Positions 15,941 through 23,470 of a stretch of DNA of 32,000 bases are shown in pieces. Position 1 is the first letter of the stretch. Each line of letters begins with the position of its first letter. The notes below the pieces were generated by a model, which saw nothing but the letters and a program-made list of their open reading frames with translations, ran no database searches and was not told where the DNA came from. A program made the translations under genes and the position numbers. Source of the stretch: Mycoplasma mobile 163K (GTDB lineage: Bacteria > Bacillota_I > Bacilli_A > Mycoplasmatales > Metamycoplasmataceae); NCBI RefSeq assembly GCF_000008365.1, contig NC_006908.1, positions 390,001 through 422,000 on the forward strand, read 5' to 3'.

Positions 15941-17881
15941 TTAAATTCCATAATATTCTTTACCAAATAAAGTAAAACTACTTATTGGTTTATGATTAGG
16001 GGAAAAAGCATTTCCTAAAGTCGGAGTAATTGCTATATCTGTATTTCCAAACATAAATTCATTAGTGAAAAATGAAGCACTATTATTAGATAAATAAACA
16101 ATTCAACTTGATTTGAAAAAATTTGCTGTTTGTTGAGTTGTAGCATTTTGTTTTAAATTAAATGTAGTTACAAAATAAGGCGGTCTAATATGTGAGCCTC
16201 CTAATTGATTTTGTCTCATTGTTAAAGCATCATTAACCAATTTTGTTTCTTTAACTAAACCTAATTCTTCTAAATTAGCATCTGTTACAACTAATAAGTT
16301 TTTAAATGATCTTAAACCATATACTCCTTTTGTAAAAGTTGTATTCGAACCATCAGTTTGATTTTTTAAAGTTCATCCATTTCCAGAAGCATCAAAATTA
16401 ATATCTAGAGAAGGAGAATTTATATCATGATTTTCAATACTTACATTTCGAATACTAATTTGAGTTTCAAGTAATGAGTTTATTGATTTATTTTCATCTA
16501 TTTGACTAAGTTCTTTGTCTAAATAATTTTGTCTAACTAAATTTTCAAAATTTCTTGCTCCAACTTGACCAGTAAATAATCAATTTTTTAACACTTCTAA
16601 ACTATTATTTGGAACAATGCTTTGATTAAAACTTTTAAATAAAGCTATTGAAGTATATCATCCTGATGTTTTTATAACTTTTGAAACTGAAACTTGGCCT
16701 GCTTGAGAAGCTGTTAAAAGTACATCTAAAGTTCCTTCTAAATTATTAAAACTTGTATTATTTGCAATACTTACAAAAAAGTTTACACCTAAAATAGATC
16801 TTGGAACATTAATGAATGAACTTAAATTTTGATCAGTAGGAAGACTTGGCAAGATATTTGATGCATTTTGATTTATACTTAAAGTAGTAATTTTATTAAA
16901 TTCAGAAATAATTGTTTTTAAAAATCCATCAATTTTAAATGTTTTTTCATTACTTACATTATTTTTAATACCTATTAAAACTATTGATAAAGATCCATTA
17001 TTATTATCAGAATCAAATGGATTCGAAACTTTTAATTGAAAACTAATACCATTAATTGCATCTGGTGTAATTAAATATTGATCAATATTTTCATTAGTTA
17101 CTGATGAAGCTAAAATGTTTGCAGCAGCAGGCTTTAAAGGAATATTTCCTATTTTATCTAATTCTATTTTAATCTCTTCTTTAATTTGTTCTACACTAAT
17201 TAAGATTTTAAACCCTGATACAATAAATTTTTTCTCAAGAGAAATTCCATCTTTTGTTGCTAATAAAACAATTTCTAATGAACCTGTAGCATCATTAAAA
17301 TTACTTGGATTTTTTAAAGTAAAAATAACTTCTTTTGCAATTGGATTTGGAGTGATTAAATATTCATTAACATTAATTGGATTTGCACTTGAAGGTAAAA
17401 TTGATGATGCTAATGGTTTTGTTTTAATAGAATTTATAAGGTCTAATTCACTTTGTAAAATTGCTAGAATTCCTTGTTGCTCATTTAAAGATTTAAAACC
17501 TACAACTTCTATTTCTTTAGTTAAAGTTTCATTATTTCTTGTTGCAACTAAAACAACTGAAATTGTTCCATTTTCATCATTAAATTTATTTGGGCTTAAA
17601 AGTCTTAAGAAAAAAATTACTTCATTTATTGGCTTTGGCACAACAATATATTGACCAATATTTTCATTTGTAACTAATGAAGGAAGCGATGTTAAAGCTA
17701 AATTTGTAAGATCTAATTTGATGATTTTATCAAATTCATTTTTTAATATTTCTTGATTTTTTAATATATCTTCTTGATCTTTGTTTCTATTTTGTCTTGT
17801 AACTGCAACACTTGGAGCAATAATTACTGTTGCACCAATTGCTGAAGATGCTATACCTAAAATTAAATTTTTCTTATTCAT
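15941..17881 (-). CDS. surface protein, 4 lipoprotein-17-like modules plus type A C-terminal module (646 aa)
   Basis: Track ORF 16658-17881 ends at TGA. I translated 16657->15941 by hand and it is open to TAA at 15941-15943. Signal MNKKNLILGIASSAIGATVIIAPSVA has no Cys. C-terminal module is WYTSIA...LKNWLFTGQVGARNFENLVRQ...PPYFV...SSWIVYLSNN...FGKEYYGI. Confidence 0.8.
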
Positions 17882-17887
17882 GTAATT

Positions 17888-17893
17888 ATTATA
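17888..17893 (-). promoter_or_regulatory. -10 box TATAAT 6 nt upstream of the ATG (leaderless-type promoter)
   Basis: The reverse complement of 17888-17896 is TAGTATAAT. No SD fits between it and the ATG at 17881. Confidence 0.45.
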
Positions 17894-17989
17894 CTACAAA
17901 TTGATTGATTATCATAAGAACATAAAAATCAAAAATTTTAAATAAAATTATTTCTAAATTATTTTTAACATCTGATAATAAAATAAAAA

Positions 17990-18017
17990 TTAAAACATCC
18001 ATAATTGAATGTTTTAA
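17990..18017 (-). terminator. hairpin terminator after gene 18069-20615
   Basis: TTAAAACAT (17990-17998) / ATGTTTTAA (18009-18017), followed on the minus strand by a T-rich run. Confidence 0.6.
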
Positions 18018-18068
18018 TTTGAAAATCTATATTAAATTTGAATTAAGAATCTTTAAAATCTAATTTTT

Positions 18069-20615: not shown

Positions 20616-20621
20616 ATAATA

Positions 20622-20627
20622 ATTATA
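20622..20627 (-). promoter_or_regulatory. -10 box TATAAT 6 nt upstream of the ATG at 20615
   Basis: The reverse complement of 20622-20627 is TATAAT. The geometry matches that at 17888 and 23477. Confidence 0.45.
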
Positions 20628-20854
20628 GTATATAATCAATGTTTTTAGTCAATTTTAGTAATATGGAACCTTTTTTTCAATAATTCAATAAAATTATGAT
20701 CTATTTATTCGGTTGTTTTTTATTACTTATTACATAAAAAAGATAGTTTATTTTTAAGTCTAAAAATTTTAAATATTCAAAAAAAGAATAAGATTTGTAT
20801 TTTTTTATATTAAAATTAAAAACATTTGAGATTATACAAGTAAAAAAATAATTA

Positions 20855-20886
20855 AAATTAAAACACCTATATTGATGTTTTAATTT
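20855..20886 (-). terminator. hairpin terminator after gene 20924-23470
   Basis: AAATTAAAACA (20855-20865) / TGTTTTAATTT (20876-20886). It is homologous to the hairpin at 17990-18017. Confidence 0.6.
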
Positions 20887-20923
20887 TAAAATTTATATTT
20901 GAATGTGATCAAAATTTTTTACA

Positions 20924-23470
20924 TTACAATCCATAGTGTTCTTTAGAAAATAAAGAAATGCTTGTTCCATTTTGTTTATAATTAATTCCATTTGTAGGAC
21001 CAAAAGCTAAATCTGTAATTTTAATATTTGTATTTCCTAAAATTGATCTGTCTCTACCGTCATTAAAAATTTTTGAAGAAATTGATAGATTATTACCATT
21101 AGCATAAATGATTCATCCCGAATTAGAAATTGAATTTTGTTGAACACTAGTTGATCCGTTTGAAAATGAAAAACTATTTACAATATATGGAGGTTGTTTA
21201 TCAACTAAAGATAATCCATCTACAACTGTTATAGGTCTAGCATTTAATCCTACTTGACTTAAAGTATCAACTGATGCTATTGTTAAATTTGAAAAATTAC
21301 CAAGCTCAAACTCTCCTTTTCTAGCCCCTGTTTCTAGATGAGAAATTTTTTCTGTTAAAGTAATACTATTTGGAGCAGTAAAATTTACAACTAAAGTTCT
21401 TTGGTTATTTCTAGTTTGAATACTTAAACCATCTACTGAAAGATCATTTCTTATTAATGAATTAATAGAATTTGTATATGCTGTATCCGAAGTATTTGCT
21501 CCTTTTAAATAATGTTCTCTTAATAAATTTCTAAAATTTAATCTTCCAACTGGACCTTTAAATAATCAATCATACGCTTGACCTAAATAATGATTTGTCT
21601 CATTTAAAGGAATATTTGTTTGGTTAAGTTTTGTAAATAATTGAGCAGTTGATAATCATCCTGTAGTTGTAATTGTTTTTGATAAGCTTGTTTGACCAAC
21701 TTGTGAAGCTGTTAAAACAACATCATGAGTTCCTCTTTGATTATTTTGACTTATCCCTGAAGGGAAACTTATAGAAAAACTTACGCCATTAGAAATTGCT
21801 GGAACATTAATAAATGAATCTAAATTTGGATTATCGTTTGTTATAGTTGGTAAAACTGTTGAAGATCCTGCTCTTAGAGATAAAGAAGTAATTTGATTAA
21901 ATTCAAAAGTAATTCTCCTCATGAATCCTGATACTTCAATACTTTTAGTACTTGAAATACCTGATTTTGAAGCAACTAAATTAATTGTTAATGAACCATT
22001 TCTATCATTAAAAATAAGTGGACTTTGAAGTTCTAATTTAAAACTTACGCCATTAGATAAATTAGGTGCATTTAAATATTCATTAATATTTTGATTATTA
22101 ACTAATGAAGGTAAAACACTTGAAGCTGCTGGTTTAGTTGCAATCGAAACAATTCTTGCTAATTCTTTATTAATGTCAGCTGTGATTTGAGCATTAATAA
22201 TATTTGAATTAGTGTTAAAACCTTGGACACTAAAAGTTTTTTCGACACTAATATTTGATCTAGTTCCTGTTAAAATAACTGAAATTTGACCATCAACATC
22301 ATTAAAAACACTTGGATTTTGAGTTTTTAAGCTAAAAATTACGCCATTAGAAGTAGCTGGAATTTGTAAATATTGGGTAATATTTGCATTATTAACTATT
22401 GAAGGTAAAGCAGTTGCAGCTGCAGGAGTTAAACTAATACCAGTAATTTTATTTAATTCTGTTTGAATTTCCATTCTTGTAACTTCATTAACAATTTCTG
22501 ATAAGGTAGCAAAACCTGAAACAGCAAAGTTTTTTTCTCTAGTAATGTTATTTCTTGATGCTTCTAAAACAACTGGTAAAGTACCGTTGAAATCATTTTG
22601 AGAATTTATTTGTCCAACTCTTAATCTAAGAGTAACACCTGTTGCTAAATCAATTGAAGGTAAAATTAAATATTGATTTATGTTTTGAGGTGTTACAGAT
22701 GAAGGGAGAACAGTTTTTGCTAAAGTAGTTGTTGAAATTGTAGAAATTCTTCCTAAAATATCTAAAAGTAAATTTTCAACTGCTTCAACTTCATTAAAGA
22801 TTCTAAAACCACTTACATTAATATTTTTATTAAGAGATCTTCCTGATTTAGATCCGATTAAAACTACTCCAAGAGTACCTGTTGTATTATTTGCACCATT
22901 TAATTGAACTTTTAAAGAAAATACTACACCATTAATCGAAACTGGAGTATTGATAAAATCATTAATATTTGTATCATTAACATTTGAAGCTAAAGTAGAA
23001 GATGCTAAATTTTTGGTAATCAATGTATTTATAATGTCTAATTCATTTTGAATTTCAAGATCAATTTTTGCATTTATTTCATTTTGATTATTTACTCTAA
23101 AACCATTTACATTAATCTTTTTTTCTTGTATTGAATTATCTAAAGAGGCCACTAAAACAACTCCAAGACTACCTTCAGCATCATTTACAATACTTGGTTC
23201 TTGTAATTTTAAAGAAAAACGTATTCCACTTAATGTGGTATTTGGCACTAAAATTGACAAAGCAATATTTAAATTTGTTACTTCTGAAGCTAAAATATTT
23301 TTCCCAAAAGAAGTTAATTCTAATTGATTGATTTTTGTAATTTCTGCTTGTACAATTTGTTCGCTTGTAAGACTTTTTTTATTCATTACAGTAGCAATAC
23401 TTGGCCCTGCAATAACCGTTGTTAGCATGCTTGCTGATGTTATTCCTAAAATTATAATTGATTTTTTCAT
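20924..23470 (-). CDS. surface protein, tandem paralogue of 18069-20615 (848 aa), 6 modules plus type A C-terminal module
   Basis: Track ORF 21656-23470 ends at TGA. I translated 21655->20924 by hand and it is open to TAA at 20924-20926. It has the same length and architecture as its neighbour and ends ...FSKEHYGL. Confidence 0.8.

What the first reader, a model, noticed from the sequence alone, without database searches (positions are those of the whole stretch)
15941..21658. Type A C-terminal module (~240 aa) conserved in four paralogues, always fused to a conserved last stalk repeat
Type A regions are 8037-8732, 15941-16660, 18069-18803 and 20924-21658. All begin at a conserved junction (T/S)(V/S/T)G-W(F/Y/L)(T/S)(S/T). 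Shared blocks are L..WLF.G..G..NF.NL.R(Q/E)..L, S(I/V)NS(I/L), LSI, DGL/DAL, PPY(I/F)V and (D/S/G)WI(I/V)Y. Three of the four end F(G/S)KE(H/Y)YG(L/I)-stop. The stalk repeat immediately upstream (...FEFN.I(T/N)(T/S)L.L...LP....N..L.SFINVP....V.F.(V/I)S......N..GT.DV.LTASQ.GQ.S.SK.I.T.GW) is also conserved across these genes, while the remaining repeats differ in number and sequence. The conserved unit is therefore last repeat plus A module, about 330 aa. I see no catalytic signature that I recognise.
Basis: seen in the sequence. Interest (0 to 1): 0.7.

Follow-up and report, generated by a model that had tools for sequence, protein, structure and literature searches.

The report
Orphan head domain of Mvsp proteins

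Summary
The window is Mycoplasma mobile 163K, genome positions about 390001-422000, read in genetic code 4 (TGA = Trp). The four genes are the annotated variable surface proteins MvspB, MvspD, MvspE and MvspF. Their C-terminal "A" modules (232-245 aa) are truly homologous: 32-33% identity, BLAST E 1e-27 to 1e-32, shuffle z 35-42. Each follows a special subtype of the Lipoprotein_17 (PF04200) stalk repeat that is 50-61% identical between paralogues but only 24-42% identical to other repeats. No relative of the A module was found. Pfam, NCBIfam, PDB sequences, an exhaustive HMMER search of 1.84 billion representative proteins, and DNA scans of genomes and metagenomes returned only the window's own proteins. 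It is not related to the other Mvsp C-terminal module (type B), and it is not a degenerate stalk repeat. AlphaFold2 gives a weak alpha+beta model (pLDDT 55) with no fold match. dN/dS of 0.20-0.54 shows purifying selection throughout. No catalytic residues are conserved. Most likely it is a non-enzymatic, outward-facing head mounted on a variable-length stalk. Its partner is unknown. Overall this is a real but lineage-restricted feature of known proteins, of modest interest.

The parts
8037..8732 (-). A module of MvspB (AAT27808 / WP_041362871), from the junction Trp (TGA) to the stop codon. It is a shortened variant lacking the KE(H/Y)YG tail.
8733..8996 (-). Last ('adaptor') Lipoprotein_17 repeat of MvspB
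   Evidence: PF04200 E 7e-14
8997..9815 (-). Three generic stalk repeats of MvspB, a 276-bp tandem array with 2.9 copies at 97% identity
15941..16660 (-). A module of MvspD (AAT27814)
16661..16921 (-). Last (adaptor) Lipoprotein_17 repeat of MvspD
   Evidence: E 1e-14
16922..17764 (-). Three generic stalk repeats of MvspD
18069..18803 (-). A module of MvspE (AAT27815). This is the sequence modelled with AlphaFold2.
18804..19067 (-). Last (adaptor) Lipoprotein_17 repeat of MvspE
   Evidence: E 1e-13
19068..20513 (-). Five generic stalk repeats of MvspE
20924..21658 (-). A module of MvspF (AAT27816, MMOB3300)
21659..21922 (-). Last (adaptor) Lipoprotein_17 repeat of MvspF
21923..23368 (-). Five generic stalk repeats of MvspF
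20519..20615 (-). N-terminal hydrophobic signal-anchor of MvspE (MKKSILILGITSASMLTTVIAGPSIATVVNKK). It has no Cys and so no lipobox. Equivalent segments begin at 9917 (MvspB), 17881 (MvspD) and 23470 (MvspF).

Best explanation
SHOWN: The A module is a folded C-terminal domain private to M. mobile, found in four annotated variable surface proteins (MvspB, D, E, F). Each protein has an N-terminal hydrophobic anchor with no lipobox, then 3-5 generic Lipoprotein_17 repeats, then one dedicated adaptor subtype of that repeat, then the A module. The best-conserved stretch of the whole 330-aa unit is the junction itself. The end of the adaptor repeat (GT.DV.LTASQ.GQ.S.SK.I.T.GW) has 14 of 20 columns invariant, and the first long helices of A (L..WLF.G..G..NF.NL.R) have 10 of 20. 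INFERRED: The adaptor repeat and the N-terminal helices of A pack together as a fixed mount, and the beta-rich remainder forms a globular head. Because the anchor is N-terminal and the repeats form a rod, the head sits at the membrane-distal tip, and the number of stalk repeats sets its height above the membrane. It acts by non-catalytic interaction with something outside the cell. A host-surface ligand is the most likely partner, by analogy with Gli349 of the same organism, which carries Lipoprotein_17 repeats and a C-terminal globular domain that catches sialylated oligosaccharides. The four diverged paralogues would offer alternative, antigenically distinct versions of the same head.
For: Homology of the four modules. 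Identity with MvspB/D/E/F. Stalk is PF04200. Adaptor repeat subtype. Conservation peak at the junction. Purifying selection in every part of A between MvspE and MvspF: omega 0.54 for the helices, 0.25 for the beta core, 0.20 for the tail, 0.33 overall. The A region is also older than the stalk, which has been homogenised by gene conversion (dS 0.29 versus 0.10). AlphaFold2 model of the MvspE module: four helices (residues 5-69) followed by about nine strands, pTM 0.57. No Cys anywhere and an N-terminal hydrophobic segment. The invariant columns contain no His, Cys or Glu and are mostly hydrophobic, Gly or Asn. Expression and surface exposure from the literature: MvspB is 1.2% of surface-protein mass (PMC5883615), and MvspF is a visible band that rises when MvspI is lost (bioRxiv 10.1101/2022.09.07.507039). 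Gli349 analogy: same preprint.
Against: No ligand, binding motif, homologue or fold match supports any particular partner. The structural model is weak: pLDDT 54.6, the other four models score 37-44, and the last 50 residues are below 35. Packing of the adaptor against the head was not modelled. The field describes Mvsps as antigenic-variation proteins, not adhesins (PMC8262943), and an antibody against the related MvspI did not affect gliding. Distal placement is inferred from topology and, from my memory of Adan-Kubo et al. 2012 (not readable here), from electron microscopy of MvspI, which carries a different C-terminal module.
Confidence: 0.5

Rival explanations
1. Passive antigenic cap. 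The head has no specific partner. It is simply the outermost, immunodominant face of a steric coat, and the four deeply diverged paralogues allow antigenic variation through differential expression.
For: Mvsps are described as responsible for antigenic variation (PMC8262943). MvspF abundance rises when MvspI is lost, and the MvspI- mutant clumps, which suggests a coat or steric role. The paralogues are only 32-33% identical. The stalk repeats are recombinogenic: a 276-bp x2.9 array at 97% identity, and a 359-nt tract identical between mvspE and mvspF.
Against: There is no sign of diversifying selection: omega is 0.20-0.54 in all sub-regions. Invariant polar and aromatic positions and a dedicated adaptor repeat are retained across deep paralogues, which is more constraint than a pure decoy needs.
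Confidence: 0.25
2. Cis-interaction domain. The A module mediates self-association or lateral contacts with other M. mobile surface proteins, organising the surface layer, or it folds back onto the cell surface, rather than facing the host.
For: The extreme C-terminal tail motif LF(G/S)KE(H/Y)YG(L/I)-COOH is conserved between paralogues that are otherwise 32% identical. The tail is under the strongest purifying selection (omega 0.20), yet it is not modelled as part of the monomer fold (pLDDT 24-32), as expected for a segment that becomes ordered on a partner. Gli123, another Lipoprotein_17 protein, dimerises and clamps neighbouring proteins.
Against: MvspB lacks the tail entirely yet is still found on the surface. 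There is no direct evidence of oligomerisation.
Confidence: 0.12
3. The A module is not a separate domain but two or three stalk repeats degenerated beyond recognition.
For: There is a loose echo of the repeat pattern (S.NS.. / LSI / L.VNF.A / KG.F.L.NF versus NI..F / V.F.L / L.V.L.A / K.I.V.GF). The model shows a helix-strand-strand order in residues 59-120.
Against: Pfam PF04200 gives no hit on A even at E<=1. hhalign of A against 20 stalk repeats gives probability 1.1%. An unfiltered HMM built from 28 window repeats scores A no better than shuffled A, with 31-307 of 500 shuffles reaching the real score.
Confidence: 0.05
4. The A module is an enzyme, such as a protease, nuclease or glycosidase, displayed on the surface.
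For: None beyond the fact that its function is unknown.
Against: No invariant His, Cys or Glu. The only invariant charged residues are R44 and D145. No match to any catalytic family in Pfam, NCBIfam or PDB.
Confidence: 0.03

Closest known systems
Mvsp family (mobile variable surface proteins) of Mycoplasma mobile, i.e. Lipoprotein_17 (PF04200) repeat surface proteins
   Same: The four proteins are members. They are exact matches to the annotated MvspB, D, E and F, with 4-6 PF04200 repeats each (E 1e-51 to 9e-91).
   Different: The family is defined in databases and in the literature I could read only by its repeats. The 240-aa A module lies outside every model. These four proteins also have no Cys and so are not lipoproteins, despite the NCBI name 'lipoprotein 17-related'.
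Type B C-terminal module of MvspC and MvspI (window 10040-10756, 27673-28380, 28636-29373). From my memory of Adan-Kubo et al. 2012, not readable here, the C-terminal end of MvspI appears as a 'bulge' in electron microscopy.
   Same: Same position in the architecture: a non-repeat module of about 240 aa after the last stalk repeat. It is likewise absent from Pfam.
   Different: No detectable sequence relationship to A (hhalign probability 1.5%). It is preceded by a different last repeat. It occurs twice in MvspI, once internally.
Gli349, the gliding 'leg' of M. mobile
   Same: It has Lipoprotein_17-type repeats forming a long flexible rod plus a C-terminal globular domain. That domain is the working end and binds sialylated oligosaccharides (bioRxiv 10.1101/2022.09.07.507039). 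This is the best functional analogy for a stalk-plus-head design in the same organism.
   Different: Gli349 (3183 aa) was not retrieved by the exhaustive A-profile search, so there is no detectable sequence homology.
Variable surface lipoproteins of other mycoplasmas (Vsa of M. pulmonis, Vlp of M. hyorhinis, Vsp of M. bovis), from general knowledge of the field
   Same: Paralogous clustered genes, tandem-repeat size variation, and a role in the surface coat and antigenic variation.
   Different: Those proteins are lipid-anchored, with a conserved N-terminus and a C-terminal region that is essentially all repeats. Here the conserved unit is a C-terminal globular domain plus its adaptor repeat, and the anchor is a hydrophobic segment without a lipobox.
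Mycoplasma immunoglobulin-binding systems (MIB-MIP, Protein M)
   Same: Surface-exposed, host-facing proteins.
   Different: No Pfam or PDB-sequence similarity. M. mobile is listed as one of the few Mollicutes without any such system (PMC8593674).

Membership tests
Mvsp / Lipoprotein_17 (PF04200) surface proteins (whole protein) | One or more PF04200 repeats above the gathering score (22.4 bits) | tested here: met
   173-299 bits with 4, 4 and 6 stretches for the three proteins scanned, MvspB, D and E (MvspF is about 90% identical to MvspE). The last repeats of MvspB, D and E alone score 51.6-54.9 bits.
Mvsp / Lipoprotein_17 (PF04200) surface proteins (whole protein) | Identity with the annotated mvsp genes of M. 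mobile 163K | tested here: met
   Exact-sequence look-up gives AAT27808 mvspB, AAT27814 mvspD, AAT27815 mvspE and AAT27816 mvspF. The neighbouring housekeeping genes are exact M. mobile matches.
Bacterial lipoproteins | Lipobox with an invariant Cys at the end of the signal peptide | tested here: not met
   MvspB-F contain no Cys at all. The neighbouring gene at 26310-27302 does have a lipobox (VVAC).
Lipoprotein_17 domain (applied to the A module itself) | Sequence match to PF04200 or to the window's own stalk repeats | tested here: not met
   No Pfam hit at E<=1. hhalign probability 1.1%. HMM scores are no better than for shuffled sequences.
Type B Mvsp C-terminal module (MvspC/MvspI) | Profile-profile similarity | tested here: not met
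   hhalign probability 1.5% over 30 columns.
Any catalogued protein family or solved structure (A module) | Significant profile or fold match | tested here: not met
Gli349 C-terminal 'foot' domain | Sequence homology to Gli349 | tested here: not met
   The exhaustive hmmsearch of 1.84e9 representatives returned only MvspE, B, D and one junk repeat protein. This is an indirect test, because the Gli349 sequence itself could not be fetched.
Gli349 C-terminal 'foot' domain | Binding of sialylated oligosaccharides | not testable with these tools
   Needs a glycan array or binding assay with recombinant protein.
MIB / Protein M immunoglobulin-binding proteins | Sequence similarity to the MIB or Protein M families | tested here: not met
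   No Pfam, NCBIfam or PDB-sequence hit.
MIB / Protein M immunoglobulin-binding proteins | Binding of host immunoglobulin | not testable with these tools
   Needs a pull-down with fish IgM/IgT.

The most novel reading that the evidence does not exclude
The adaptor+A unit is a new-fold host-recognition head, for example a lectin for fish-gill glycans or a binder of teleost immunoglobulin. M. mobile would have evolved it de novo, and it would supply a function that this species otherwise lacks, since it is one of the few Mollicutes without MIB-MIP or Protein M (PMC8593674). The four paralogues would be specificity variants.
Probability: 0.1. Interest if true: 0.6.

Novelty: new variant of a known kind. 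Interest (0 to 1): 0.3.

Why it matters
M. mobile is the model organism for one of the fastest bacterial gliding machines, and its surface is dominated by Mvsps. These proteins have been treated essentially as strings of Lipoprotein_17 repeats. This analysis shows that four of them carry a separate, selectively constrained 240-aa domain with its own adaptor repeat. That defines a concrete construct of about 330 aa for structure determination and binding tests, and it adds a candidate orphan domain family to the catalogue. The module appears to be confined to one species, and the proteins are minor surface components, so the reach beyond mycoplasma surface biology is limited unless a host ligand is found.

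Tried and rejected
1. Table-11 reading. ORFs break at the junction Trp, so I re-called them in code 4.
2. Compositional artefact. Rejected, because shuffle z is 35-42.
3. Internal duplication within A, suggested when MAFFT aligned G..G..NF.NL with KG.F.L.NF.NL. Rejected: hhalign of the two halves gives probability 1.8% over 13 columns.
4. A as degenerate Lipoprotein_17 repeats. Rejected at sequence level.
5. A related to the type B module. Rejected.
6. Homologues elsewhere. None were found by single-sequence or alignment word-index searches, which also failed to return the window's own proteins and so are weak tests. None were found by the exhaustive profile search either. Its only extra hit, P0009, is a low-complexity tandem-repeat artefact with nine weak stretches. 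Degenerate-pattern scans of species-representative genomes and JGI metagenomes also found none. One of the two patterns in each scan contained Trp, which is TGA in this organism and so may not have been back-translated correctly.
7. Synteny through gpmI. Only relatives at 41-44% identity from Entomoplasmatales were found, so this was uninformative.
9. Frameshifted tail in mvspB. Not present.
10. Promoter and terminator consensus scan. At chance level in this AT-rich DNA, with 123 sites found versus 121.5 expected, although a hairpin plus T-run is visible by eye after each gene.
11. Primary Mvsp papers (Jaffe 2004; Adan-Kubo 2012). Not held in the library, so I cannot exclude that they already sketched C-terminal classes.
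Full report
**What the sequence is.** Re-calling ORFs with genetic code 4 (TGA = Trp) fuses each pair into one gene: 8037-9941, 15941-17893, 18069-20654 and 20924-23482, all on the minus strand. Every Trp codon in these genes is TGA and none is TGG. Exact-sequence look-ups of four neighbouring housekeeping proteins (pfk, pyk, RluA, gpmI) identify the organism as Mycoplasma mobile 163K. 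The four proteins are the annotated variable surface proteins MvspB (AAT27808), MvspD (AAT27814), MvspE (AAT27815) and MvspF (AAT27816), and the gene at 10037-11668 is MvspC. From the published position of mvspI (417670-423678; supplement of bioRxiv 10.1101/2022.09.07.507039), the window corresponds to genome positions 390001-422000.

**Checking the observation.**
- The four junctions (TVGWFTS, TSGWYTS, TTGWLST, TTGWLST) and module lengths (232, 240, 245, 245 aa) are as described.
- Between the three deep lineages (B, D, E/F), blastp with composition correction gives 32-33% identity over 209-257 columns, E 2.6e-30 to 1e-32. MvspE and MvspF are 83% identical.
- Local alignment scores are 35-42 standard deviations above shuffled controls, so the similarity is homology, not low-GC composition.
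- Thirty-eight columns are invariant. Two of the quoted blocks hold in only three of four sequences: VSI in MvspD and DPY in MvspB.
- MvspB lacks the terminal KE(H/Y)YG motif, and no frameshifted remnant lies downstream.

**The stalk and the last repeat.** The stalk is made of Pfam PF04200 (Lipoprotein_17) repeats, with 4, 4 and 6 stretches in MvspB, D and E. An all-against-all comparison of the 20 repeats shows that the last repeats form their own subtype. They are 50-61% identical (85-101 bits) across paralogues, but only 24-42% identical (25-61 bits) to any other repeat. They are still bona fide PF04200 domains (E about 1e-14).

**Conservation along the unit.** Across the B, D and E lineages, conservation peaks at the junction. 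The end of the last repeat (GT.DV.LTASQ.GQ.S.SK.I.T.GW) has 14 of 20 columns invariant. The helix block WLF.G..G..NF.NL.R has 10 of 20. The beta-rich remainder runs at about 20-25% pairwise identity.

**Is the A module anything known?** No.
- Pfam gives nothing on A even at E<=1.
- NCBIfam gives only a 14.6-bit chance hit.
- PDB sequence profiles give E>=0.3.
- The restricted tools reject translations containing code-4 Trp. I therefore built a profile from TGA-free fragments covering the central 141 positions and ran it exhaustively against 1.84 billion representative proteins. It found only MvspE, MvspB and MvspD, plus one low-complexity tandem-repeat artefact.
- Word-index searches with one module or with the four-sequence alignment found nothing, even at E<=1. 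They did not return the window's own proteins either, so they count for little.
- Pattern scans of species-representative genomes and of JGI metagenomes found nothing.
- A is not related to the other Mvsp C-terminal module, type B, found in MvspC and twice in MvspI (hhalign probability 1.5%).
- A is not an internal duplication (1.8%).
- A is not a degenerate string of stalk repeats (hhalign 1.1%; HMM scores no better than shuffles).

**Selection.** Between the tandem duplicates mvspE and mvspF, Nei-Gojobori dN/dS is 0.33 for A and 0.30 for the generic stalk. Within A it is 0.54 for the helices, 0.25 for the beta core and 0.20 for the tail. The whole module, including the tail that could not be modelled, is therefore under purifying selection, and there is no sign of diversifying selection. 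dS is three times higher in A (0.29) than in the stalk (0.10), and a 359-nt tract spanning repeat 3 is identical in the two genes. This shows that the stalk is being homogenised by gene conversion, while the adaptor+A unit evolves independently.

**Topology and expression.** MvspB-F contain no cysteine, so they have no lipobox. Each starts with a basic residue pair followed by a hydrophobic segment (mean Kyte-Doolittle 1.8-1.9 over 19 residues). The neighbouring gene at 26310-27302 does have a lipobox. The A-type Mvsps are thus anchored, or exported, through an N-terminal hydrophobic segment, which leaves the C-terminal unit farthest from the membrane. In the literature I could read:
- MvspB is 1.2% of surface-protein mass (PMC5883615).
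- MvspF is a visible band that increases in an MvspI-deficient mutant, whose cultures clump (bioRxiv 10.1101/2022.09.07.507039).
- Mvsps are regarded as antigenic-variation proteins (PMC8262943).
- Predicted Mvsp structures are described as Lipoprotein_17 beads linked by a helix and a short loop.
- None of these texts names or discusses the C-terminal module.
- The primary Mvsp papers were not available.

**How it most likely works.**
- Shown: a conserved 330-aa C-terminal unit, non-catalytic in appearance (no invariant His, Cys or Glu), under purifying selection, sitting on a stalk of variable length.
- Inferred: the adaptor repeat and the first helices of A form a fixed mount, and the rest is a globular head at the distal tip. 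The head works by interaction rather than catalysis.
- The closest working analogy is Gli349 of the same organism, which has Lipoprotein_17 repeats plus a C-terminal globular domain that catches sialylated oligosaccharides. Gli349 was not retrieved by the exhaustive profile search, so this is analogy and not membership.
- I rate a binding head at about 0.5, a passive antigenic cap at 0.25, a cis-interaction or oligomerisation domain at 0.12 (the conserved, strongly constrained, unmodelled tail is the main hint), degenerate repeats at 0.05 and an enzyme at 0.03.

**Novelty and verdict.** The genes and the family are known, and the repeat is a Pfam family. What is not catalogued in any resource I could query is the A module and its dedicated adaptor repeat. 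The module appears to be confined to one species. It is best described as a new variant within a known kind: stalk-and-head surface proteins of M. mobile. Orphan domains are common on mycoplasma surfaces, so a specialist would not be surprised, and I score interest at 0.3. The most novel reading still open is a new-fold host-recognition head, perhaps filling the gap left by the absence of MIB-MIP or Protein M in M. mobile (PMC8593674). I give this a probability of about 0.1.

Noticed in passing
window 10040-10756 (MvspC), 28636-29373 and 27673-28380 (MvspI), minus strand: There is a second, unrelated C-terminal module of about 240 aa ('type B', starting ...FFTPSRTNL...). It ends MvspC and occurs twice in MvspI, once internally and once at the C-terminus. 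It has no Pfam match and no similarity to A (hhalign probability 1.5%).
   Followed up: partly
window 19651-20009 (mvspE) and 22506-22864 (mvspF): A 359-nt tract spanning stalk repeat 3 is 100% identical between the tandem duplicates, which are 92.9% identical overall. dS is 0.10 in the stalk against 0.29 in the A module. This indicates recent gene conversion confined to the stalk.
   Followed up: yes
window 8997-9801: The three generic repeats of mvspB form a 276-bp tandem array (2.9 copies, 97% identity, no indels). This is the kind of array expected to change copy number by recombination.
   Followed up: partly
window 9860-9923 and 11610-11668, minus strand: MvspB (A-type head) and MvspC (B-type head) share a nearly identical N-terminal signal-anchor (MNKKNMILGSIA...) at both nucleotide and protein level. 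This suggests modular shuffling of 5' ends, stalks and heads among mvsp genes.
   Followed up: no
window 11764-13302, minus strand: A non-mvsp gene is embedded between mvspC and mvspD. It encodes a 512-aa ABC/SMC-like P-loop ATPase (Pfam AAA_21 'putative AbiEii toxin' E 9e-15; AAA_15 E 5e-12). Its C-terminal region (..CEGISD..VDGDNAGN..) looks Toprim-like by eye, as in OLD-family nucleases, so it may be a defence gene.
   Followed up: partly
whole window; for example + strand 18736-20619 and 21591-23474: In code 4, long stop-free frames of 627 aa run antisense to mvspE and mvspF, and similar ones lie opposite mvspB, mvspD and mvspI. They mirror the repeats and are most likely artefacts of AT-rich, TGA-permissive sequence rather than genes.
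   Followed up: no
window 2-2536, minus strand: Another large repeat-containing surface protein (845+ aa, with an N-terminal hydrophobic segment and ...GF repeat ends) runs off the window start. Its repeats are much more divergent than those of MvspB-F, and its C-terminus is outside the window.
   Followed up: no
A modules, e.g. MvspE residues 32-46 versus 113-127 (window about 18666-18710 and 18423-18467): A short motif echo within the module (G.VG..NF.NL versus KGEFELGNFSNL) caused MAFFT to misalign fragments. It is not significant (hhalign 1.8%) and remains unexplained.
   Followed up: yes
L001 (Logan assembly SRR29904084, 2754-bp contig): The only other public contig carrying the identical gpmI is a short Logan assembly contig that also begins mvspF. 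It is presumably a resequencing of M. mobile. Apart from it and the 163K genome record, no second strain or close relative was found in the collections searched.
   Followed up: no
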